Part shown: positions 21,488 to 49,849 of the stretch, in pieces | Numbering within the stretch: the first letter of the stretch is position 1 | Layout of the letters: each line of letters begins with the position of its first letter | Source of the DNA: Escherichia phage SP27 | Reading direction: 5' to 3' (one strand) | Sequence record: LC494302.1 | Length of the DNA stretch: 64,000 nucleotides | Notes under the pieces: model-generated | Databases searched by the model: none | What the model was told of the DNA's origin: nothing | The model's input: the letters and a program-made list of their open reading frames with translations, nothing else | Made by a program: the position numbers and the translations under genes

Positions 21488-21910
21488 ATGTTCACACTAA
21501 GTAATGCAAAATATCTTTTTCTTATTGGTATTATTGGTTGGGTTATGGCTCCAGTGCTAAATGCACTGGGGTTTTCCGATGAACATAAACTTGTAAATGT
21601 TTCAGGTTTAATTCAGGGTATTTCATGGTATACATTAATTACATTTTCAGTGTGCATCAATACATTTGCCCGTGATTATCGACGTTTGTTATATCTGAAA
21701 GTATTTGGAACTACACGATATAGTTTTGTTTACACTTTCATTTTATTACCGTGCATGTTATATGCATTTGTATTTGATTACTATACATATCTATGGGTAT
21801 GTGGAACTATGTTTGTTATGTTGGAATACATCAGAACTGTTCAAAACTCATATGCCGATGAGTTTCATGATCTAGAAGTTAAACGAAAATTAACGGAGCT
21901 AAACAAATGA
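21488..21910 (+). CDS. multi-TM membrane protein
   Basis: 140 aa, about 4 hydrophobic helices. Confidence 0.45.
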   Translation: MFTLSNAKYLFLIGIIGWVMAPVLNALGFSDEHKLVNVSGLIQGISWYTLITFSVCINTFARDYRRLLYLKVFGTTRYSFVYTFILLPCMLYAFVFDYYTYLWVCGTMFVMLEYIRTVQNSYADEFHDLEVKRKLTELNK

Positions 21911-22332
21911 GAGGCTATAATAAGATTTGTATTTTTGTATTTTTAGTTTGTGCATTCAATTCGTTTGGTTACTACTGTACAGAAAATAATATTTCATATG
22001 GTTTAAATCCTTTGTGGTTTACAATTTCCAATGTAGCACAAATTGGTATTGCTCTTATGTCTGCACTTATGTTCTGTCCAATTGTCACTATGGATACGGA
22101 TCATGAAAGGCTTGGATTTCTCCGTGATACTGGAGACGAACCTTACAGTAGATTGATTGTGTTGTATCCATTTATTGTTATTTTAGGTACTAACATCCAA
22201 CTTGGGTCATTATCTAATAGTGTTACATCAGCAGCTATTGCTATATTTGCATTCACATTTTTTATGGTACACAAATCAGTACTTAATTGGTATATCACAA
22301 AAATGGCAGAAGAAGGTACTAAAAATACTTGA
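21907..22332 (+). CDS. multi-TM membrane protein
   Basis: 141 aa, hydrophobic, ATGA-coupled. Confidence 0.45.
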   Translation: MRGYNKICIFVFLVCAFNSFGYYCTENNISYGLNPLWFTISNVAQIGIALMSALMFCPIVTMDTDHERLGFLRDTGDEPYSRLIVLYPFIVILGTNIQLGSLSNSVTSAAIAIFAFTFFMVHKSVLNWYITKMAEEGTKNT

Positions 22333-30708: not shown

Positions 30709-31371
30709 ATGTTAGTTAATCTTAATTTCATCACTTCACCTGACTGGGCATTACGTGGAGTTTCTTTAAACTTCAAGGAAACTATGTTTGACTACATTGG
30801 TGAGTGTACATTGGTAAATGCAACTTTTGATCCAAATCATCCGTTTTGGGCTGAAATTCATGATCCAAATGTAAACAACAATACATCTGTTATGACTATT
30901 GTCCAGACTAAACATGCAGGTATCCTTGCAGGTTATCGACCTGCACATGCAATTGAACACTTCACTGATTACGATGTCGTGGATGAATACCCAATGATCC
31001 ATGAAGATGGAAGTCTATACACATCTGAAGACTTCCGTGCTATCTTTAATAGTACTGATGATATTCTACCAAGTGGACGTCCACGTCCTGAGTCTTATCT
31101 TATGCATCCATCTTATGGTGTAGCAGATACGCTTGAACAGATTATGAATAAGTACAAGAACCTAATTGAAGGTCCAGAAGAAATTGTCCTGTGCTATCAC
31201 CCAGTACTGAAGTCTGAACAACCAAAGGATGGTGGATGGCGTTGGCATAAGAATGGTGAGTATATCGGTACTAAACGAAGTAAAGAACGTTTTGAGTACT
31301 TGTGTGATGAGCCAGATGTTGATGTGGTTTTGTGTTATAATTTTATTAAGGTGAAAAAGAAATGTATCTAG
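30709..31371 (+). CDS. hypothetical protein
   Basis: Start at MLVNLNF after GAGGATA RBS; 220 aa. Confidence 0.5.
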   Translation: MLVNLNFITSPDWALRGVSLNFKETMFDYIGECTLVNATFDPNHPFWAEIHDPNVNNNTSVMTIVQTKHAGILAGYRPAHAIEHFTDYDVVDEYPMIHEDGSLYTSEDFRAIFNSTDDILPSGRPRPESYLMHPSYGVADTLEQIMNKYKNLIEGPEEIVLCYHPVLKSEQPKDGGWRWHKNGEYIGTKRSKERFEYLCDEPDVDVVLCYNFIKVKKKCI

Positions 31372-31604
31372 TACTAAGTTTTGTTGTTGCACTATTGTTT
31401 ATGTTCTATCCTACACTAGTGGCATTAGCCACTAGACGAACGATGGTAGATCTCACTACTGTATTCTTGCTAAACGTGGCATTAGTACTGGTGTCTATTA
31501 TCATTCCAGTGAGCTTTACAGTTATTGATATTATTTCGGTATTACTCTTCGTGTTAAGTTATCTTATGCTTATTGAAGAAACAAATGTTGACAAACGTTC
31601 GTAG
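31362..31604 (+). CDS. small membrane protein
   Basis: 80 aa, two TM helices. Confidence 0.4.
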   Translation: MYLVLSFVVALLFMFYPTLVALATRRTMVDLTTVFLLNVALVLVSIIIPVSFTVIDIISVLLFVLSYLMLIEETNVDKRS

Positions 31605-31615
31605 TACTGTATAAT
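31588..31615 (+). promoter_or_regulatory. sigma70-like early promoter
   Basis: TTGACA ... GTAGTACTG-TATAAT. Confidence 0.5.
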
Positions 31616-31661
31616 GGTTCCTGTAGTCTGAAACTTAACACTTAAACTTGAGGTAAAAAAT

Positions 31662-31988
31662 ATGCTATCAGTACTAATTTCAATTCCGTCTTTAATTCTG
31701 ATTTGGCTTCTGGTTTACGAATGCTTTATTACTGATGATAATGATAAAAAAGAGTTCTCTGAGTTGTTTATGCTTGATTCGCCGATTGTGCGTATTTTCT
31801 ATACAGTCGTTGTGGTTTCAGTAATTGTATGGGTTTTGAGTTTTATCTTCCCACTCGGTGCAGTAGTTAAAACTTTGGATTTAGTTGAGAACTTTGTTGC
31901 AATTATGTGGCTAATCAAAGCACTATTTGCAGGAAATGTTAAAATTTGGATTGATATTATCAAATTCAAGTTCACGAATAAGATGTAA
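31662..31988 (+). CDS. multi-TM membrane protein
   Basis: 108 aa hydrophobic, TGAGGTAAA RBS. Confidence 0.45.
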   Translation: MLSVLISIPSLILIWLLVYECFITDDNDKKEFSELFMLDSPIVRIFYTVVVVSVIVWVLSFIFPLGAVVKTLDLVENFVAIMWLIKALFAGNVKIWIDIIKFKFTNKM

Positions 31989-32066
31989 CAGTGAAAATAT
32001 CTCTATAGTATTAAATACTTCTGTACATATATATAGTACAGAAGTATTTCTCGTTAGAGGTTTGTT

Positions 32067-32426
32067 ATGAAGAGTTATATAAAATTAATAGCACTTGTGT
32101 GTGCATTATTTTCATGTTTTAGTTATGGTGCAGCAGCAGAAACATATTGTCGTAGTACTAAGGGAACGTGGCATGTATTGACTAACGACCCTAGAAATGG
32201 TAAAAATATAGTTGTTGATGGTGTGATTTATCGTTTTAAAGTAGAAAGTATTATCGGTAATAAAAAAATCTCGACTTATAGAGATGATTCTGGTACATTA
32301 GCAAACGTAATATTAATTGTAGACCCAAGAACTGGTAATGGTGATATCTATATAGTAATTTACTTGGACTCATCGGTACGCCGTGACCTAGATATAGATA
32401 AATTGAACTTACACTGTGAAATATAG
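32067..32426 (+). CDS. secreted protein (paralog of 32818)
   Basis: Signal peptide MKSYIKLIALVCALFSCFSYGAAAE; AGAGG RBS. Confidence 0.5.
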   Translation: MKSYIKLIALVCALFSCFSYGAAAETYCRSTKGTWHVLTNDPRNGKNIVVDGVIYRFKVESIIGNKKISTYRDDSGTLANVILIVDPRTGNGDIYIVIYLDSSVRRDLDIDKLNLHCEI

Positions 32427-32437
32427 GACTTAAAAAA

Positions 32438-32815
32438 ATGGTAAACACTATTTTACTTTTGTTGTTGAATATTCCAATTATTCTGTCTTTTTTAATTTCT
32501 ATTTTTATGGCAGGATATTGTTTAGTTGCAGTAATTCATTTCATTTTAACAAACAAATATGTCCTAATTTCTAAGCTTGATTCTATTTTTGCTTGCGATT
32601 CGATTGCTTATAACTTGTGGTTAATTTGTTCTTGCATTATGGGAGTAACTTTCCTTCTGTATGTATTTGATGTCCTTGACCAAAAGTTCGTATACATCAG
32701 TACTGGATTGGCTCTTTATCCTGCTACGTGGTACTTGATTTACGTTGGTGATATATGGTATAGTACTTATAAAGAATATCAGTACAAGAAATCACTTAAC
32801 GTTGGAGGAAAATAA
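32438..32815 (+). CDS. multi-TM membrane protein
   Basis: 125 aa hydrophobic. Confidence 0.45.
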   Translation: MVNTILLLLLNIPIILSFLISIFMAGYCLVAVIHFILTNKYVLISKLDSIFACDSIAYNLWLICSCIMGVTFLLYVFDVLDQKFVYISTGLALYPATWYLIYVGDIWYSTYKEYQYKKSLNVGGK

Positions 32816-32817
32816 TC

Positions 32818-33192
32818 ATGAAAATTATTTTATTTTTTGTATGTATGTTAATGTGTGGATTGTCATATGCTGAACCATTGGAAGGTTTAGTTTGTACAGA
32901 TGGTAATATTAAACATATCTATCAAGGTGATAGTGACGATCGAGATATTGTATATATTGATGGACAATCATATACGTTTGTTAAAGAGCATACAGTAGGC
33001 GACATTAGCTTCACTGAGTTTTCTAACGACACAGACCCTAACTTCTTAGCGTTTATTGAAGTAGATGTATATGAAGATAGTAATGGCACACAATATGCTA
33101 AATTAGTTATGATGCGTCGTGGTGCTAAAGAAACTAGTTTTGGTGGCTTGTGTAAATATAAGGATTGGTATTATGTTGATTTATCAAAGTGA
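32818..33192 (+). CDS. secreted protein (paralog of 32067)
   Basis: Signal peptide MKIILFFVCMLMCGLSYAEP; GGAGGAAAA RBS. Confidence 0.5.
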   Translation: MKIILFFVCMLMCGLSYAEPLEGLVCTDGNIKHIYQGDSDDRDIVYIDGQSYTFVKEHTVGDISFTEFSNDTDPNFLAFIEVDVYEDSNGTQYAKLVMMRRGAKETSFGGLCKYKDWYYVDLSK

Positions 33193-33355: not shown

Positions 33356-33390
33356 AAAGGTTGACTTCGGTCAGCCTTTTTTGTTATAAT
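33356..33390 (+). promoter_or_regulatory. PeSL-like terminator/promoter hybrid
   Basis: AAAGGTTGAC-ttcg-GTCAGCCTTTTTT; TTGACT lies in the stem, TATAAT 18 bp downstream. Confidence 0.6.
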
Positions 33391-39207: not shown

Positions 39208-39244
39208 AAAAGGGTTGACTTCGGTCAGCCTTTTTTGTTATGAT
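39208..39244 (+). promoter_or_regulatory. PeSL-like terminator/promoter hybrid
   Basis: AAAAGGGTTGAC-ttcg-GTCAGCCTTTTTT; TTGACT-18-TATGAT. Confidence 0.6.
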
Positions 39245-40259: not shown

Positions 40260-40598
40260 ATGGAACAATATTTTGAATTAATAAACAAAGTATCATTTTA
40301 TGTAGTATCTTTGGTTTGGGTGTATTATATGTTTTGCTACATTATTGCATTCTTCCGATACACTACTTTATATGAACGTATCTACTATGATGCCCCAATT
40401 TCATTCTTGATGTTTTGTGCATGTACGTGGGGAATATTAGAAGTACTGATATGTGGGTATAGTACTGATGAATTAAATCTGGTATCGGTCTTGACTGGGT
40501 TTTCATTTGTTGTTATGATAGCTGCCGTTCCAGTATGGTTGTTCTTTGGACTAGTTCATCGCATTGATATATGGCGTTCTAATATCCCTGAAAAGTAA
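40260..40598 (+). CDS. small multi-TM protein, array A member 1
   Basis: 112 aa, 3-4 TM helices, basic tail RSNIPEK. Confidence 0.5.
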   Translation: MEQYFELINKVSFYVVSLVWVYYMFCYIIAFFRYTTLYERIYYDAPISFLMFCACTWGILEVLICGYSTDELNLVSVLTGFSFVVMIAAVPVWLFFGLVHRIDIWRSNIPEK

Positions 40599-40607
40599 GG
40601 ATTGGTA

Positions 40608-40949
40608 ATGATTTATTACACTAACATGTTTGCCTATGCTGTTGCTTGCATTTACATTGTTTACTTCTTATTTGGTGGAGTACTGTGCTTCTTTAAGTAC
40701 AAAACGTTGTTCAACCGAATGTACCCAAATCATCCAATTGTAGTTGTACTTTTGATTCTTTCAGTTTCTCAAATAATCGTTGAAACTACAATGGGTATCA
40801 GTAGTGTACATTATAGTTTTGGTACTATAGTAATTATTACTATGCTTATTGCATACATTTTAGTACTTGGATATGGTATCTTTGGTAATATTGGTATGAA
40901 AATGTATCATCGAATTAAAACATTACGTGATAATCTACCGGAGCGTTGA
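40608..40949 (+). CDS. small multi-TM protein, array A member 2
   Basis: Paralog; tail LRDNLPER. Confidence 0.5.
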   Translation: MIYYTNMFAYAVACIYIVYFLFGGVLCFFKYKTLFNRMYPNHPIVVVLLILSVSQIIVETTMGISSVHYSFGTIVIITMLIAYILVLGYGIFGNIGMKMYHRIKTLRDNLPER

Positions 40950-40950
40950 T

Positions 40951-41295
40951 ATGTATAATTTGAACCTAATCTCATATATTATAACAACACTGTTTACATT
41001 CTATGCCTTTGTTGGTATAATCCTACTGTACTTTAAATTTTATAAAGTGTTTAACCGTTTCTATCCTTCAATGGAGAATGAGTTTTTCTTTGTGTTGTAC
41101 GTATGTTACACATTCATGGCTACATGTTTCACTGTAGTCGATGGTGTCATCGGCATTAAAACTGCTGCACCAAATGGTAGTACGCTGGTTGCATTTATTC
41201 TTACCGGATTCCTTGCAACTTATATTGCCTTCATTGCAACATGGTCAGTGGTTGAATTTCTCTTGCGACTACGAAAGAATATGCCGAATCGATAG
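40951..41295 (+). CDS. small multi-TM protein, array A member 3
   Basis: Paralog; tail LRKNMPNR; TGATATG coupling. Confidence 0.5.
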   Translation: MYNLNLISYIITTLFTFYAFVGIILLYFKFYKVFNRFYPSMENEFFFVLYVCYTFMATCFTVVDGVIGIKTAAPNGSTLVAFILTGFLATYIAFIATWSVVEFLLRLRKNMPNR

Positions 41296-43703: not shown

Positions 43704-43739
43704 AAAGGGTTGACTACGGTCAGCCCTTTTTGCTATAAT
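43704..43739 (+). promoter_or_regulatory. PeSL-like terminator/promoter hybrid
   Basis: AAAAGGGTTGAC-tacg-GTCAGCCCTTTTT; TTGACT-18-TATAAT. Confidence 0.65.
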
Positions 43740-43767: not shown

Positions 43768-44283
43768 ATGACACGCATTAACTTAGTACACGTTAAAGAA
43801 CTTGCTGACCAACATCTGATGGCTGAATATCGTGAACTCCCACGTGTATTTGGTGCTGTACAAAAACACGTTCAAGCACGTAAGCGTGTACGTGATTTCA
43901 AAATTAACAGTACTTATCTGTTAGGTTCAGGTCATGTGACATTCTTTTACGACAAGTTGCTGTACTTACAGAAGCGTCATATCGATATTGTTAACGAATG
44001 TTTGCGTCGTGGTATGAAGATTCAAAACACTGAAGTAAACGACATTAGCGGCTTCCCTGCTGAGTTTTGTAATGACTACGTACCAACGGAGTCAGAGATT
44101 AAAATGTCTCGTGATCGTTTGATTGAGAAGCTCCAGATGAAGCCTACGTGGTATAAGTTTACTGATGTTGAATGTCCACAGTACGTTAAAGATATGCAGA
44201 ACGTAAGTAGTAAGAACGAATCTAGTACTGATATGTTCGACGAAATTGAAGAACAAATCAAAGATGAAATGAATAATTATTAA
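43768..44283 (+). CDS. denV: endonuclease V (pyrimidine-dimer DNA glycosylase/AP lyase)
   Basis: [50 protein letters not shown] matches T4 endonuclease V as I recall it over most of its length. Confidence 0.8.
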
Positions 44284-44984: not shown

Positions 44985-45020
44985 TAAAGGGTTGACTTCG
45001 GTCAGCCCTTTTTGCTATAA
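44985..45020 (+). promoter_or_regulatory. PeSL-like terminator/promoter hybrid
   Basis: AAAGGGTTGAC-ttcg-GTCAGCCCTTTTT; TTGACT-18-TATAAT. Confidence 0.65.
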
Positions 45021-45049
45021 TTATTTCATCAACTGAAGAGGGTAAAGAA

Positions 45050-45820
45050 ATGACCAGAGAAGCACGCAGCATTCAAATTCAGAAAAACTTCAACTCCATG
45101 ATGGTTGCTCTTGAGTGTTTGCTCGATGATAGCAGTACTGTAAAAAGTATGGTTGTCAGTGGTGCTCCTGGTGTTGGTAAGACTTACACCTTGTCCCAAC
45201 GTCTCCAGAAGGCTCATGACGCAGCAGAATGGAACGTAGCTACTATCAGTGGTAAGATGACTACACTGGCTCTGTACGAAGTTCTGTACAAGAATCGTCA
45301 CAGCACCAACGTGTTAGTACTGGATGATATGGACAGCATCTTTGATTCTGAAGACGGTATGAACCTGCTCAAAGCTGTTTTGGATAGTGGTAAGCGTACT
45401 GTATCTTATATGACTAGCTCTAAGTACTTGAGCACTAACGGCATTCCTAATAGCTTTGATTTTAATGGTCGCATCGTATTCATTACTAACAAAGATTTAG
45501 CGTTAGATGCTAAAGCTAAAACTAAAATGTCTGCTCATTATGCTGCTCTTATGTCTCGTTCTGTGTACGTGGATTTACAGATTCAGACTAAAAGTGATAT
45601 CATGATTCATATTGAAAATGTAATGACTAAGACTAATATCCTTGCATCTAAAGGTGTTAACAGTAACGGTAGTAAAGCAATTCTGAACTGGATGTTAAAA
45701 CATGAAGATAATCTTCGTGCACCATCCCTGCGTATGCCTTTGTTGATTTCAGCAGTATATAACAACAATCCGTATGATTGGGAAGAACAATGTGAAAACT
45801 TGTTCCTTGAGAAAATCTAA
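45050..45820 (+). CDS. P-loop NTPase (AAA+-like)
   Basis: Walker A GAPGVGKT, Walker B-like VLVLDDMD. Confidence 0.55.
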   Translation: MTREARSIQIQKNFNSMMVALECLLDDSSTVKSMVVSGAPGVGKTYTLSQRLQKAHDAAEWNVATISGKMTTLALYEVLYKNRHSTNVLVLDDMDSIFDSEDGMNLLKAVLDSGKRTVSYMTSSKYLSTNGIPNSFDFNGRIVFITNKDLALDAKAKTKMSAHYAALMSRSVYVDLQIQTKSDIMIHIENVMTKTNILASKGVNSNGSKAILNWMLKHEDNLRAPSLRMPLLISAVYNNNPYDWEEQCENLFLEKI

Positions 45821-45829
45821 TTACATATG

Positions 45830-45861
45830 TTGACAGTACTACCATAGTGTAGTACTATAAC
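45830..45861 (+). promoter_or_regulatory. promoter-like element
   Basis: TTGACAGTACT ... GTAGTACTATAAC; -10 ambiguous. Confidence 0.35.
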
Positions 45862-45887: not shown

Positions 45888-46229
45888 ATGCTTGAGTTTT
45901 TTAATTCAGATACAATGCTTGGTATCACGCTAATTTACATGTTTGTATTCTTGTTTTATCATTCAATTGTAATTAGTCTTTGGTATTTTAAAAGGAAAGT
46001 TGTTTTTAAATTGTATTCGTATGATAATGTACTCTTAGTAGTATATAGCATTATACAAGGTGGGTTTATTTTATTTGGTGTGATGACATATGTGATTTAC
46101 ATGTTACAAATTGATAATACACCACACATTACACAATATGTTGTGTTTTCAGGACTAATCGTCTGGTTATTGGTGTGTACTCTGTATTTTATTATTAAAG
46201 CTCGTGATAACTTTAAATGGGGATTCTAA
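45888..46229 (+). CDS. small multi-TM protein, array B member 1
   Basis: MLEFFNSDTMLGITLIYMF; 113 aa. Confidence 0.5.
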   Translation: MLEFFNSDTMLGITLIYMFVFLFYHSIVISLWYFKRKVVFKLYSYDNVLLVVYSIIQGGFILFGVMTYVIYMLQIDNTPHITQYVVFSGLIVWLLVCTLYFIIKARDNFKWGF

Positions 46230-46567
46230 TGTTAGAATTTTTTAAATCAGATACAATGATTAGTATTACTTTGATTTATCTGTTTGGTTTTTTCTTTTAT
46301 CATGCACTAGTTGTAGTACTATGGTATTTTAAAAAGAAAATTGTTTTTAAACTGTATCCAGTGAGGAATTCATCACTAGTTCTTTACACACTTGTTCAAG
46401 GTTTGTTTGCAATTGTTGGTCTTATGGCACACTTAATTTATTGTGCCAATCCTCACTTGAACTCAATCTCACAATATATTGTATTCTTTGGGTTGTTCAT
46501 TTGGTTAGTTGTATACTTAATCCATCTCATTATTCATGGTAGAGATAAAATTCGCGGAGACTTCTAA
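46229..46567 (+). CDS. small multi-TM protein, array B member 2
   Basis: MLEFFKSDTMISITLIYLF, clear paralog; TAATG coupling. Confidence 0.5.
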   Translation: MLEFFKSDTMISITLIYLFGFFFYHALVVVLWYFKKKIVFKLYPVRNSSLVLYTLVQGLFAIVGLMAHLIYCANPHLNSISQYIVFFGLFIWLVVYLIHLIIHGRDKIRGDF

Positions 46568-46914
46568 TGTTTGAAGCTTATCTTGAGTTTTTAAGGAGTA
46601 GTCCAGTTGCACATTCACTTGCAGGGATTATTCTAACAACTTATGTATCATTTTGGGTAGTTATGTTTCTAGGATGGTATTTTAAACGACAATTCTATAA
46701 ACGTAATGGTGAAGATTTTATGAATTCTGTCATTAATCAATCGTTGTTTGCATCAACATTGATTGCATGTATTGTAGCAACACTCACAGGAAAGGTACTA
46801 CCAGCTTTTTCCGCAGTTTACGGCACACTTGGGATGATATGTTTAACTTTTATATTGACCATTAAAATTTGTTGTGTTATGATTGAACTTCGAAATAAGA
46901 TACCGGAGGAATGA
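46567..46914 (+). CDS. small multi-TM protein, array B member 3
   Basis: Hydrophobic, tail ELRNKIPEE. Confidence 0.5.
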   Translation: MFEAYLEFLRSSPVAHSLAGIILTTYVSFWVVMFLGWYFKRQFYKRNGEDFMNSVINQSLFASTLIACIVATLTGKVLPAFSAVYGTLGMICLTFILTIKICCVMIELRNKIPEE

Positions 46915-47249
46915 TGGAGTACTTTATTGATTTACTGCCGTGGTATATGAAAGTTAGTACCATGTACTATATTATTAGTGCTGGATTCTACTTTCTGATG
47001 TGGTTCTTTAAACGACCAATTTCAGTATTCATCGCTGATAACATGTTGCAATTAAAATTACACGCATGGTTTGGTATGGCGATGATTATGCCTATTATTC
47101 ACTACTCAATGATTAGTAGAGGTTTCCGTTCTAATGGTGAACCAATTGTATTAGTATTCTATTGGGGTTCAACTATTGCATATGTAAGTTTGTTGTTGTT
47201 CCCAGTCGTTCATAAGTTACGTGCTAAAGTTCCTGATGCGAGGTACTAA
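46911..47249 (+). CDS. small multi-TM protein, array B member 4
   Basis: Tail KLRAKVPDARY. Confidence 0.5.
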   Translation: MMEYFIDLLPWYMKVSTMYYIISAGFYFLMWFFKRPISVFIADNMLQLKLHAWFGMAMIMPIIHYSMISRGFRSNGEPIVLVFYWGSTIAYVSLLLFPVVHKLRAKVPDARY

Positions 47250-47563
47250 TGGATATAGTAACATTGATTTACACGTTGTATTCATTCTATTTCATTATGT
47301 GTTGGGTTGGATTTTTATTTGTACTCAAGATGTTTGATTATGTTGAAAAACAGATAAAAGAATTTTGTATTCCTTTTATCGGTTCAACCATTATTAGTGT
47401 TTCTTGTGTGTATTTTTTGGTTTTTGATCCACCAGATAACACTGCAATGATTGACTTGATGTTACTACCAACAACTGTTACTTTTTTATGTAGTCTGATG
47501 CCGCCGATTAGCCGTGGACTAACAGAATTTAGACGCAATCAAAAGCGTAAACGAGGGATGTAA
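47249..47563 (+). CDS. small multi-TM protein, array B member 5
   Basis: Basic tail RRNQKRKRGM. Confidence 0.5.
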   Translation: MDIVTLIYTLYSFYFIMCWVGFLFVLKMFDYVEKQIKEFCIPFIGSTIISVSCVYFLVFDPPDNTAMIDLMLLPTTVTFLCSLMPPISRGLTEFRRNQKRKRGM

Positions 47564-47931
47564 TGGAAATTGCTCTTATTATCTTAACTGCTATGCTGTT
47601 TATTAGTACTGTGGTTATAATTGGTAAATTCTTTTGTGTATCATTTTTAGAAACGGTATACGATGAAATTGCTGATGATTATGAATTACAAGCCGGATTT
47701 TTCATTACGTATTGGCTTAGTTTATTTTGTCTAGTCATTGCTTGGATTTTACATATCTTTAAATGGGGTATGGTAGACGGTGATCCTATTATGGCAATTA
47801 TTGTTCTAGTGTTTGGTATCCTTGGTGGTGCAGTGCATAATCTAATGGTTATCTGGCAAACTGTTCAATATGTTTTGGTTCCCTATTTCGAAAAGATGCA
47901 CAGTACAATTAAAAAACGTAAACGAGGTTAG
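47563..47931 (+). CDS. small multi-TM protein, array B member 6
   Basis: Basic tail KKRKRG. Confidence 0.5.
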   Translation: MEIALIILTAMLFISTVVIIGKFFCVSFLETVYDEIADDYELQAGFFITYWLSLFCLVIAWILHIFKWGMVDGDPIMAIIVLVFGILGGAVHNLMVIWQTVQYVLVPYFEKMHSTIKKRKRG

Positions 47932-47932
47932 T

Positions 47933-48295
47933 ATGAACGGGATAGAATTATCTTTCGTTGGTCAATTACTAGTAATGGCGTATACATTTATCTTCTCACT
48001 GAATGCATTCGTGTGCATTGGGAAGTACTTCCATAAGCGACCATTATCAAATATATATGATGTAATCCAAAAGAGATATAGTCCAGCATATACTGTGTTG
48101 GGTACAGTATTCAATTTTGGTTTTATTGTATTAATAATTGGACTGTTCACATCCTCTTTGAATACAATAACCTTCGGTCTTATGATATGTTCATTGGTAT
48201 TAGCCGTAATTATATGTTGTTTAGTACTGCACCTTGTGGTACTATTGTATATAAAGATCTCTGAAATCCACCAACGTTTGGGTATGAGGAAATAA
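47933..48295 (+). CDS. small multi-TM protein, array B member 7
   Basis: Start at MNGIELSF after GAGGT. Confidence 0.45.
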   Translation: MNGIELSFVGQLLVMAYTFIFSLNAFVCIGKYFHKRPLSNIYDVIQKRYSPAYTVLGTVFNFGFIVLIIGLFTSSLNTITFGLMICSLVLAVIICCLVLHLVVLLYIKISEIHQRLGMRK

Positions 48296-48296
48296 T

Positions 48297-48668
48297 ATGA
48301 GTTACCGTGAGATATTTTCCATTATTTCAATTATTATGTTCAGTACTGGAACACTGGTATGGTTATTATACTTCTTCTGTATTAATCCAGTGTATAATAT
48401 GTTATGTAATATTAAATCAAGTGCCGGATATATCACTTTTATGGTCTTTATGGGATATTATTGTCTAAGCATTTTAGGTGTTGTTTTGGTTGTTATATTT
48501 GATGTGGGACCAAATAGTGATGGTATGGAAATACATGAATTAATAACCATGTTTGGATGTATGATACCAACAGCACTACTGTTTGTAGCTACTGGTAGTG
48601 GATTGATAAAATTATATAATTATTTAAAATCCATTCATAATTCCATTCATAATAAGCGTATGTCATAA
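48297..48668 (+). CDS. small multi-TM protein, array B member 8
   Basis: 123 aa, tail NKRMS. Confidence 0.5.
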   Translation: MSYREIFSIISIIMFSTGTLVWLLYFFCINPVYNMLCNIKSSAGYITFMVFMGYYCLSILGVVLVVIFDVGPNSDGMEIHELITMFGCMIPTALLFVATGSGLIKLYNYLKSIHNSIHNKRMS

Positions 48669-48698
48669 TAAAAAATCCAGTACTATTAAGTACTGGAT
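48667..48698 (-). terminator. hairpin with T-run on minus strand
   Basis: TCCAGTACT-attaa-GTACTGGA; T6 follows only on the minus-strand reading. Confidence 0.4.
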
Positions 48699-49776: not shown

Positions 49777-49849
49777 TTGTATCCTCCAAATGTAAATCGT
49801 TATTATATTTAGGACAAAAAAATGCCAGTACAAGGCACTGGCATAAAAT
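49777..49849 (-). promoter_or_regulatory. array cassette (diverged)
   Basis: Hairpin GCCAGTGCCTTGTACTGGC, TATAAT, GGAGGA RBS. Confidence 0.45.

What the first reader, a model, noticed from the sequence alone, without database searches (positions are those of the whole stretch)
45050..45820. P-loop ATPase just upstream of the eight-gene membrane array
Seen: Walker A GAPGVGKT and Walker B-like VLVLDDMD in a 256-aa protein bracketed by a PeSL and a promoter. Function unknown; its position invites a link with the membrane-protein array.
Basis: inference. Interest (0 to 1): 0.4.

Follow-up and report, generated by a model that had tools for sequence, protein, structure and literature searches.

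The report
Phage NrdC.10-family AAA+ ATPase gene
The gene is real and encodes a short form of a very widespread but still uncharacterised phage ATPase, first seen as T4 NrdC.10. Its tie to the neighbouring membrane-protein genes is only positional and is limited to one group of jumbo phages.

Summary
ORF 45050-45820 (+) encodes a 256-aa protein with Walker A GAPGVGKT and Walker B VLVLDD. A PeSL-type terminator/promoter cassette lies upstream and a sigma-70-like promoter downstream.

The window comes from an Asteriusvirus-type jumbo coliphage (JP4, G17, 121Q). The protein belongs to the T4 NrdC.10 family (phrog_1250, E 3e-103; 38% identity to T4 NrdC.10). This family occurs in about 1300 sequenced phages and forms at least 1311 clusters at 50% identity. 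No function has been shown for it.

The protein has a complete AAA+ motif set (sensor 1 N147, arginine finger R170, sensor 2 R228) and a confident AAA+ model. It has a conserved insert before sensor 1 and no close solved relative. Unlike most relatives, it lacks the N-terminal extension, which is an RGRP AT-hook in 71 of 260 members.

Elsewhere the gene lies beside DNA genes: UvsY/UvsW, gp46/47, and exonuclease with DNA polymerase. My best reading is an oligomeric, DNA-associated accessory ATPase of replication or recombination. This is inferred, at about 0.4.

The link to the membrane array is co-transcription and conserved adjacency within the jumbo clade only. It is absent from 87 other loci. 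This is an ordinary new member of a known, uncharacterised family.

The parts
44986..45011 (+). Stem-loop of a PeSL-type cassette (AAAGGGTTGAC-TTCG-GTCAGCCCTTT), followed by a T-run. It is the likely intrinsic terminator of the upstream 119-aa gene.
   Evidence: Folds at -18.3 kcal/mol, z -6.1. The cassette is repeated 4 times in the window against 0 expected and aligns well. Its form matches nt-1-type PeSLs (PMC4122927).
44992..45021 (+). Sigma-70-like early promoter embedded in the PeSL: -35 TTGACT, 18-nt spacer with extended TG, -10 TATAAT.
   Evidence: 11/12 consensus match. The same cassette lies upstream of the ATPase in L094, and a terminator plus TTGACA/TATAAT lies upstream in L093.
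45036..45041 (+). Shine-Dalgarno AAGAGG, 8 nt before the ATG.
   Evidence: Read from the sequence.
45050..45820 (+). CDS of a 256-aa AAA+ ATPase (28.7 kDa, pI 7.7) of the T4 NrdC.10 family / phrog_1250. It lacks the family's usual N-terminal extension.
   Evidence: ORF. phrog_1250 E 2.8e-103, matching profile positions 77-326 of 327. 38% identity and E 8e-56 to T4 NrdC.10. AF2 model with pLDDT 94.2. PF00004 scores 24.0 bits against a 21.2 cutoff.
45161..45184 (+). Walker A / P-loop GAPGVGKT (residues 38-45).
   Evidence: G38, G41, G43 and K44 are invariant in 50 homologues. Position.
45311..45334 (+). Walker B VLVLDDMD (residues 88-95). It reads DD rather than the commoner DE.
   Evidence: D92 and D93 invariant, D95 at least 90% conserved. 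It lies on strand E87-92 of the model.
45386..45466 (+). Conserved insert of about 27 residues (113-139) between helix alpha3 and the sensor-1 strand. It has two short strands and a short helix and sits at the pre-sensor-1 position.
45488..45490 (+). Sensor 1 asparagine N147, at the end of strand beta4 (FITN).
   Evidence: Invariant. Position in the model.
45557..45559 (+). Putative arginine finger R170, in an LMSRS (box VII / SRC-like) motif just before beta5.
   Evidence: Invariant. It lies between H161-169 and E172-175. Its role is inferred from AAA+ topology.
45731..45733 (+). Putative sensor 2 arginine R228 (SLR), at the start of lid helix 228-239.
   Evidence: S226 and R228 are invariant. 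The four-helix lid spans 181-252. Its role is inferred.
45830..45858 (+). Internal sigma-70-like promoter (TTGACA-17-TACTAT) between the ATPase and the first membrane gene. The spacer holds a 7-8 bp inverted repeat, and no T-run terminator precedes it.
   Evidence: Found. The fold is not better than shuffles (z -0.9). The element is conserved in Turkey5. It is absent from L093 and L094, where the gap is 10 bp.
45888..48668 (+). Array of eight small (104-123 aa) membrane-protein genes, most with 3 TM segments, co-oriented and probably co-transcribed with the ATPase. Its functional connection to the ATPase is unproven.
   Evidence: TM counts. Each matches only a lineage-specific PHROG of unknown function. 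The array is gene-for-gene collinear in Turkey5. Arrays of the same size and topology follow the ATPase in L093 and L094.

Best explanation
The gene encodes the Asteriusvirus orthologue of T4 NrdC.10, a stand-alone AAA+ ATPase module transcribed early from a sigma-70-type promoter inside a PeSL cassette.

Shown here:
- It has the full catalytic set of an oligomeric AAA+ enzyme: Walker A K44, Walker B D92/D93, sensor 1 N147, a trans-acting arginine R170 and sensor 2 R228.
- It has the alpha/beta core plus four-helix lid fold.
- It carries a family-specific, strongly conserved insert in front of sensor 1.

Inferred mechanism:
- Subunits assemble into a ring or spiral, with ATP bound at subunit interfaces.
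- ATP binding and hydrolysis move the conserved pre-sensor-1 insert, which grips the substrate.
- The substrate is most likely DNA or a DNA-bound protein of the phage replication, recombination or repair machinery.

In most relatives the same core is attached to a basic N-terminal targeting module: an RGRP AT-hook, a small beta-rich domain as in T4, or a helical module. The gene usually sits among helicase, nuclease, recombinase or polymerase genes. The jumbo-phage form has lost the targeting module, so it must either act untargeted or be recruited by a partner. It is an accessory factor, not a core replisome component.
For: Identity (high confidence):
- phrog_1250 at E 2.8e-103.
- 38% identity over 239-252 aa to T4 NrdC.10, E 8e-56.
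- BFVD structural match to 'nrdC.10' of Aeromonas phage 25, TM 0.94.
- 1309 phage records carry one copy each.
- 1311 clusters at 50% identity at E <= 1e-30.

Active oligomeric AAA+:
- Invariant catalytic residues.
- Model pLDDT 94.2.

DNA connection (inferred):
- 71 of 260 family members carry an N-terminal K/R-RGRP AT-hook.
- N-terminal extensions have a median pI of 9.6, against 6.3 for the core.
- In 51 of 90 loci a UvsW-type helicase lies 1-6 genes downstream, and a UvsY-like gene lies upstream in 23 loci.
- L097 places the gene after gp47/gp46-like genes.
- In siphovirus RDJL Phi 1 the homologue gp32 lies between an exonuclease and DNA polymerase A.
- In Xanthomonas phage BUDD it is close to a divergently oriented primase/helicase gene, with one small ORF between them.
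- In L098 a DEAD/ResIII helicase gene lies one gene away.
- Here, denV lies 0.8 kb upstream.
- The weak sequence-level neighbours are ORC1/Cdc6, RFC, Hda and TnsC.

Early expression: the PeSL promoter.
Against: - No experiment on any family member was found. The only paper naming nrdC.10 reports just a weak AAA match.
- The neighbourhood evidence is guilt by association. 51 of the 90 loci probably belong to one broad marine T4-like lineage, and early regions of large phages are rich in DNA genes anyway.
- The window protein lacks any DNA-targeting extension, and its core is not basic (pI 7.7).
- T4 NrdC.10 is not among the classical T4 replication or recombination genes (my own knowledge), so any role is accessory.
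- Structure searches do not single out a DNA-handling clade. MoxR, NtrC and dynein score as well as DnaA and ORC.
- In this clade the gene heads an operon of membrane proteins, which the DNA model does not explain.
Confidence: 0.42

Rival explanations
1. Membrane-coupled ATPase. In the jumbo-phage clade, the extension-less ATPase is the cytoplasmic energy or assembly partner of the fast-evolving 3-TM proteins encoded after it. Together they could form, for example, a superinfection-exclusion, envelope-remodelling or DNA-to-membrane tethering system.
For: - Adjacency is kept in all six clade loci while the ATPase diverges to 47% identity and the TM proteins diverge beyond recognition. 25 of 30 downstream genes have at least 2 TM segments.
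- L093 and L094 have 10-bp gaps with the promoter/PeSL only upstream of the ATPase.
- No terminator separates the two here.
- This clade lacks the N-terminal extension and is the one clade sampled with the array.
Against: - There is no association in 87 other loci (7 of 373 downstream genes), in T4, or in three independent extension-less lineages.
- A second array of the same TM family at 40260-41295 has no ATPase.
- An internal promoter precedes the array here and in Turkey5.
- The ATPase has no TM or obvious membrane-binding segment.
- The whole region is syntenic in the clade, so adjacency may simply be inherited.
Confidence: 0.12
2. Host-takeover or counter-defence accessory ATPase. It would remodel or sequester a host protein such as a defence system, protease or nucleoid protein, rather than act on phage DNA transactions.
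For: - It lies in an early, hyperplastic, PeSL-punctuated region full of small orphan genes.
- In T4 the homologue lies in the nrdC.1-nrdC.11 block, where nrdC.5 counteracts Dsr1 (PMC9391042).
- Nearby parts of that block are deletable (PMC9825161).
- Indels with homing endonucleases occur right next to the gene.
Against: - Conservation is very broad and single-copy, across Straboviridae, Ackermannviridae-like phages, Rak2-like jumbo phages, PA5oct and a roseophage siphovirus, with invariant catalytic and insert residues. Host-specific counter-defence genes are usually patchier.
- There is no significant PADLOC match.
- AT-hook extensions point to DNA.
Confidence: 0.15
3. It is what various GenBank records call it: a clamp-loader subunit, a replication initiator, a FleQ/NtrC-type transcription activator or a thioredoxin.
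For: - Record names include 'clamp loader of DNA polymerase', 'putative processivity clamp loader', 'transcriptional regulator FleQ' and 'thioredoxin'.
- Weak hits exist to clamp-loader PHROGs (E 0.009) and to RFC4, ORC1 and Cdc6 (E 0.003-0.02).
Against: - All these hits are at generic-AAA+ level and below the family thresholds.
- The protein ends right after the lid, so there is no clamp-loader collar domain, no winged-helix or HTH DNA-binding domain and no initiator helical insert in alpha2.
- It has no GAFTGA motif and no CxxC motif.
- 'Thioredoxin' is a name carried over from the neighbouring T4 gene nrdC.
Confidence: 0.04

Closest known systems
Bacteriophage T4 NrdC.10 (NP_049708, 325 aa; 'uncharacterized 36.7 kDa protein in nrdC-mobD intergenic region'); PHROG family phrog_1250
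   Same: Homologous over the whole AAA+ module: 38% identity, E 8e-56, with the same invariant Walker A/B, N147, R170 and R228 and the same pre-sensor-1 insert. Both are early-region, single-copy genes. The predicted structure of an nrdC.10 orthologue superposes at TM 0.94.
   Different: The window protein lacks the beta-rich N-terminal domain of about 66-76 residues (phrog profile positions 1-76 are unmatched). None of T4's neighbouring nrdC genes has a homologue in the window. T4 has no downstream array of 3-TM proteins. The function of NrdC.10 itself is unknown.
AAA+ ATPases with a pre-sensor-1 insertion (MoxR/NorQ/CbbQ, NtrC-type activators, MCM, dynein/midasin, McrB, RuvB)
Initiator / loader AAA+ proteins (ORC1/Cdc6, DnaA/Hda, RFC/gp44 clamp loaders, DnaC/IstB, TnsC/MuB)
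   Same: These are the closest at sequence-profile level, though only weakly (E 0.003-0.2). The Walker B context VLVLDDMD resembles Cdc6-type VLVLDEMD, and the box VII 'SR' and sensor-2 arginine arrangements are similar (the motif comparison is from my own knowledge). Many family members carry DNA-binding-type N-terminal modules.
   Different: There is no initiator-specific helical insert, no collar domain and no winged-helix or domain IV. The insertion before sensor 1 is not a feature of these clades. All hits fall far below family cutoffs, for example 21 bits against a 181-195 cutoff.

Membership tests
AAA+ ATPase superfamily | Walker A GxxGxGK[ST] and Walker B hhhhD[DE] | tested here: met
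   GAPGVGKT at 38-45 and VLVLDD at 88-93, invariant in 50 homologues.
AAA+ ATPase superfamily | Sensor 1 polar residue on beta4, arginine finger before beta5, sensor 2 arginine in the lid | tested here: met
   N147, R170 and R228 are invariant and sit at the expected places in the model. Their catalytic roles are inferred, not assayed.
AAA+ ATPase superfamily | alpha/beta Rossmann-like core (strand order 5-1-4-3-2) followed by a helical lid | tested here: met
T4 NrdC.10 family (phrog_1250) | Significant full-length match of the ATPase module to the family profile and to T4 NrdC.10 | tested here: met
   phrog_1250 at E 2.8e-103, profile positions 77-326 of 327. T4 NrdC.10 at 38% identity, E 8e-56.
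T4 NrdC.10 family (phrog_1250) | Family-specific conserved insert before sensor 1 (R116, L127, P133, F136, G140) | tested here: met
   P133 is invariant and the other four are at least 90% conserved in alignment A1. All are present in the window protein.
T4 NrdC.10 family (phrog_1250) | N-terminal extension (about 25-100 aa; beta-rich domain or AT-hook) found in most members | tested here: not met
   The window protein starts 37 residues before Walker A. 52 of 260 members, including the whole jumbo clade, lack the extension. This marks a truncated variant and does not exclude membership.
Clamp-loader subunits (T4 gp44 / RFC / gamma-delta') | C-terminal collar domain (domain III) after the lid, and a significant family match | tested here: not met
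   The protein ends at residue 256, directly after the lid helices. The best clamp-loader PHROG hit is E 0.009 and RFC4 is E 0.01.
Replication initiators (DnaA / Orc1 / Cdc6) | Initiator-specific helical insert in alpha2 and a C-terminal DNA-binding domain (winged helix or domain IV) | tested here: not met
   alpha2 is a plain 10-residue helix (72-81) and there is no C-terminal domain. TIGR02928 scores 21.2 bits against a 181.3 cutoff.
Sigma-54 activators (NtrC / FleQ) | GAFTGA loop and a C-terminal HTH | tested here: not met
Thioredoxin (name used in many GenBank records) | Thioredoxin fold with a CxxC active site | tested here: not met
   No CxxC; the only cysteines are at residues 23 and 248. 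The fold is AAA+. The name derives from the nearby T4 gene nrdC.
PeSL (promoter-early stem-loop) cassettes of T4-type phages | Composite stem-loop terminator plus sigma-70-like promoter, repeated in the genome and lying at indel boundaries | tested here: met
   The stem-loop folds at -18.3 kcal/mol with the -35 inside it and TATAAT after the T-run. There are 4 copies against 0 expected. JP4, G17 and vB_Ec-M-J carry an insertion exactly at this cassette. The form matches PMC4122927. Promoter and terminator activity were not assayed.

The most novel reading that the evidence does not exclude
In the Asteriusvirus-like jumbo phages, an NrdC.10-type AAA+ motor lost its DNA-targeting N-terminal module. 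It became the lead gene of an operon of rapidly diversifying 3-TM proteins, forming a previously undescribed membrane-associated ATPase system. Such a system might act in superinfection exclusion, envelope remodelling, or anchoring of the very large replicating genome to the membrane.
Probability: 0.1. Interest if true: 0.6.

Novelty: new member of a known kind. Interest (0 to 1): 0.27.

Why it matters
NrdC.10-type ATPases are among the most widely conserved phage proteins with no assigned function. They occur in about 1300 sequenced phages and at least 1300 clusters at 50% identity, from T4 to jumbo phages and a marine siphovirus.

This analysis corrects misleading database names (thioredoxin, clamp loader, FleQ). 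It defines the catalytic residues and a conserved pre-sensor-1 insert that can be mutated. It shows that the N-terminal module varies between AT-hook, beta-domain and none.

It also gives two concrete, testable hypotheses: a DNA-transaction accessory factor, or a membrane-array partner in jumbo phages. For this particular window, the finding is an ordinary member of that family and not a new system.

Tried and rejected
- Pfam, NCBIfam and PADLOC scans gave only generic or sub-threshold AAA hits.
- Sequence searches of the PDB, with the single protein and with a profile, found nothing better than E 0.003.
- Literature searches for nrdC.10 and spelling variants found one 2006 paper noting a weak AAA match. 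Jumbo-phage genome papers do not mention the gene. The supplement of the T4 genome-reduction paper is not held.
- I looked for T4-like synteny. No other T4 nrdC-block gene has a homologue in the window.
- I tested whether loss of the N-terminal extension goes with a membrane array in independent lineages. It does not.
- Pfam scans of the longest N-terminal extensions found no domain.
- PHROG and Pfam scans of the eight membrane proteins gave only lineage-specific families of unknown function.
- I rejected the clamp-loader, initiator, FleQ and thioredoxin labels because their defining domains or motifs are missing.

Full report
**What is in the sequence**

The ORF at 45050-45820 on the + strand starts with ATG and encodes 256 aa. 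An AAGAGG ribosome-binding site lies 8 nt upstream. Walker A GAPGVGKT occupies residues 38-45 and VLVLDDMD residues 88-95.

The window comes from an Asteriusvirus-type jumbo coliphage. The region is 99.8% identical to phage JP4 and 96% identical to G17 and Sharanji. It also matches 121Q, PBECO4 and phAPEC6. In those records the gene is named 'hypothetical protein', 'AAA family ATPase', 'clamp loader of DNA polymerase' or 'transcriptional regulator FleQ'.

**Flanking signals**

A strong stem-loop sits directly after the stop codon of the upstream 119-aa gene, at 44986-45011. It folds at -18.3 kcal/mol with z -6.1. Its stem contains a -35 TTGACT. A T-run follows, and after an 18-nt spacer comes TATAAT.

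- The 35-nt cassette occurs four times in the window (33356, 39210, 43705, 44987), against none expected.
- It has the A3G3-loop-C3T3-4 shape reported for nt-1/KVP40-type PeSLs (PMC4122927).
- In JP4, G17 and vB_Ec-M-J, a 1.4-2 kb insertion with a homing or HNH endonuclease sits exactly at this cassette. This fits the shuffling role proposed for PeSLs.

Downstream of the ATPase, TTGACA-17-TACTAT (45830-45858) is a 10/12 match. Such matches are not enriched overall in this region. But the element is conserved in Turkey5, whose ATPase is only 57% identical. No terminator-like site lies between the ATPase and the next gene.

**Family**

The protein matches phrog_1250 ('unknown function') at E 2.8e-103, but only over profile positions 77-326 of 327.

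- A tblastn search finds one copy in each of 1309 phage records. These are mostly T4-like phages, in which the hit is gene nrdC.10.
- Identity to T4 NrdC.10 (325 aa, 'hypothetical protein') is 38% at E 8e-56.
- A profile search of 1.84 billion representative proteins gives 1311 clusters at E <= 1e-30 and 4036 at E <= 1e-10.
- The family also occurs in an Ackermannviridae-type vibriophage, PA5oct, Xanthomonas phage BUDD and the siphovirus RDJL Phi 1.
- The only paper in the library naming nrdC.10 reports a marginal AAA-domain match (PMC1524935).

No functional study was found, so the family is known but uncharacterised.

**Molecular anatomy**

Fifty homologues were aligned, with mean column identity of 34%. 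The invariant residues are G38, G41, G43, K44, D92, D93, P133, N147, H163, A166, R170, L176, S226, R228 and W244.

The AlphaFold model is confident (pLDDT 94.2, pTM 0.88). It shows an AAA+ alpha/beta core followed by a four-helix lid, and the protein ends there.

- N147 lies at the end of beta4, the sensor 1 position.
- R170, in LMSRS, lies just before beta5, the arginine-finger position.
- R228, in SLR, opens a lid helix, the sensor 2 position.
- A conserved insert of about 27 residues (113-139) lies between alpha3 and beta4. It has two short strands and a short helix and occupies the pre-sensor-1 position. P133 is invariant; R116, L127, F136 and G140 are at least 90% conserved.

The structure searches do not resolve a clade:

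- Foldseek ranks ORC1, ClpA, RuvB, Bcs1 and RFC first, at TM about 0.5.
- Sequence profiles weakly prefer ORC1/Cdc6, RFC4, TnsC and Hda.

So this is a bona fide AAA+ enzyme, probably active and oligomeric, from a distinct family with no solved close relative.

The alternative labels fail on their defining features. There is no collar domain (clamp loaders). There is no initiator insert or DNA-binding domain (DnaA/ORC). There is no GAFTGA or HTH (FleQ/NtrC). There is no CxxC (thioredoxin).

**Variable N-terminus**

Most relatives carry an N-terminal extension ahead of the core. The median is about 45 aa and the maximum 146 aa.

- 71 of 260 collected members have a canonical K/R-RGRP AT-hook.
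- Many others, T4 included, have a small beta-rich domain (M..V.I.NG.Y.G..I.GTF.L...).
- Others have helical modules.
- The extensions are basic (median pI 9.6), while the core is near neutral (6.3).
- No Pfam domain matches the extensions.
- The window protein and its whole clade have no extension.

**Neighbourhoods**

I called genes in 93 loci (90 for the neighbour-clustering step) and clustered the neighbours.

- A UvsW-type helicase lies 1-6 genes downstream in 51 of 90 loci. A UvsY-like mediator, a UvsX-like recombinase and a gp32-like protein lie upstream in many of them. The last two are recognised by eye, not by a tool. These loci probably form one broad marine or freshwater T4-like lineage.
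- Independent contexts also point to DNA genes:
  - L097: the gene follows gp47/gp46-like genes.
  - RDJL Phi 1: it lies between an exonuclease and DNA polymerase A.
  - Xanthomonas phage BUDD: it is close to a divergently oriented primase/helicase gene.
  - L098: a DEAD/ResIII helicase gene lies one gene away.
  - L003: a UvrD helicase lies about 5 kb upstream.
  - This window: denV lies 0.8 kb upstream.

Together with the AT-hooks, this is the basis for my preferred, inferred reading: an accessory, DNA-associated AAA+ remodeller or loader of phage replication, recombination or repair. The ATP-driven movement of the conserved insert is assumed from how other AAA+ enzymes work. It has not been shown.

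**The membrane array**

The eight ORFs at 45888-48668 are 104-123 aa long, mostly with three hydrophobic segments and basic C-terminal tails. They match only lineage-specific PHROGs of unknown function.

Evidence that ties the array to the ATPase:

- In all six loci of the jumbo clade (ATPase identity 47-100%), the ATPase is followed directly by such an array. 25 of 30 downstream genes have at least 2 TM segments.
- The figure is 7 of 373 in 87 more distant loci.
- The array is gene-for-gene collinear in Turkey5. In L094 and L093 it is similar only in size and topology.
- In L093 and L094 the gap is 10 bp and the only promoter or PeSL lies upstream of the ATPase.

So the ATPase heads the transcription unit in this clade.

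Evidence against a functional link:

- Three independent extension-less lineages lack an array.
- T4 has none.
- A second array of the same 3-TM family, with the shared C-terminal motif LR.N[IML]P[ED], lies at 40260-41295 with no ATPase.
- An internal promoter precedes the array here and in Turkey5.
- The entire neighbourhood, from denV to the RCC1-like genes, is syntenic in the clade.

It remains a minority hypothesis, at about 0.1.

**Verdict**

The gene is an N-terminally short member of the known but uncharacterised T4 NrdC.10 family of AAA+ ATPases. Nearly identical copies are already in GenBank. Its mechanism is inferred, not shown.

The finding is ordinary for this window. Its modest interest lies in the breadth of the family, the variable targeting module, and the clade-specific operon with membrane proteins.

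Noticed in passing
window 33356-33390, 39210-39244, 43705-43739, 44987-45021 (+): A 35-nt PeSL-type terminator/promoter cassette (AAGGGTTGACTTCGGTCAGCCCTTTTTGCTATAAT) is repeated 4 times in the window. The same 34-53 nt occur at 90% identity or more in 76 phage records. These include Rak2-like jumbo phages (K64-1, Serratia BF, Erwinia pEa_SNUABM_50, Pectobacterium CBB, Yersinia fHe-Yen9-03), Vibrio phages of about 253 kb and Aeromonas phage 65. A regulatory cassette shared across phage genera could be followed up as a recombination hotspot.
   Followed up: partly
window 44982/44983 junction; L001 3971-6000 (JP4); L002 3803-5412 (vB_Ec-M-J): JP4, G17/Sharanji and vB_Ec-M-J carry an extra 1.4-2 kb between the 119-aa ORF and the ATPase, exactly at the PeSL. 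The insertion holds small ORFs plus a homing or HNH endonuclease. This window lacks it.
   Followed up: partly
window 40260-41295 (+): A second array of three 3-TM proteins (112, 115 and 122 aa) belongs to the same family as the eight-gene array. The first member, a1, shows weak similarity to m8, the last gene of the eight-gene array, and the arrays share the C-terminal motif LR.N[IML]P[ED]. No ATPase lies next to it. Further small membrane-protein clusters lie at 31362-33192 and 21488-22332.
   Followed up: partly
window 49850-63974 (-): A long array of at least 12 paralogous genes of about 370-430 aa lies on the opposite strand. Related phages annotate them as 'regulator of chromosome condensation', and they carry RCC1/WD40_RLD-type repeats. 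GC skew flips sign at about 50 kb, where the coding strand changes.
   Followed up: no
window 43768-44283 (+): A T4 endonuclease V (denV, pyrimidine-dimer glycosylase) homologue lies 0.8 kb upstream of the ATPase. A Pyr_excise gene is also kept upstream of the ATPase in the distant jumbo contig L093.
   Followed up: no
window 48675-48698 and 49822-49844 (-), 51065-51083 (both strands): Terminator-like hairpins built on a common CCAGTAC...GTACTGG palindrome punctuate the region after the membrane array and between the RCC1-like genes. A related 7-8 bp inverted repeat, GTACTAC...GTAGTAC, lies in the spacer of the promoter at 45830-45858.
   Followed up: no
L099 18802-19833 (Roseobacter phage RDJL Phi 1 gp32); L098 6001-6780: The family reaches beyond myoviruses. 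A siphovirus homologue (32% identity, E 3e-34) sits between an exonuclease and DNA polymerase A. One 259-aa member lies in what looks like a bacterial chromosomal context, with ABC transporter and heparinase genes nearby and a DEAD/ResIII helicase gene one gene away.
   Followed up: partly
public records: Database names for this one family are inconsistent and mostly wrong. They include thioredoxin, clamp loader of DNA polymerase, putative processivity clamp loader, transcriptional regulator FleQ, archaellum component FlaC, P-loop NTPase and ATP-binding protein.
   Followed up: yes
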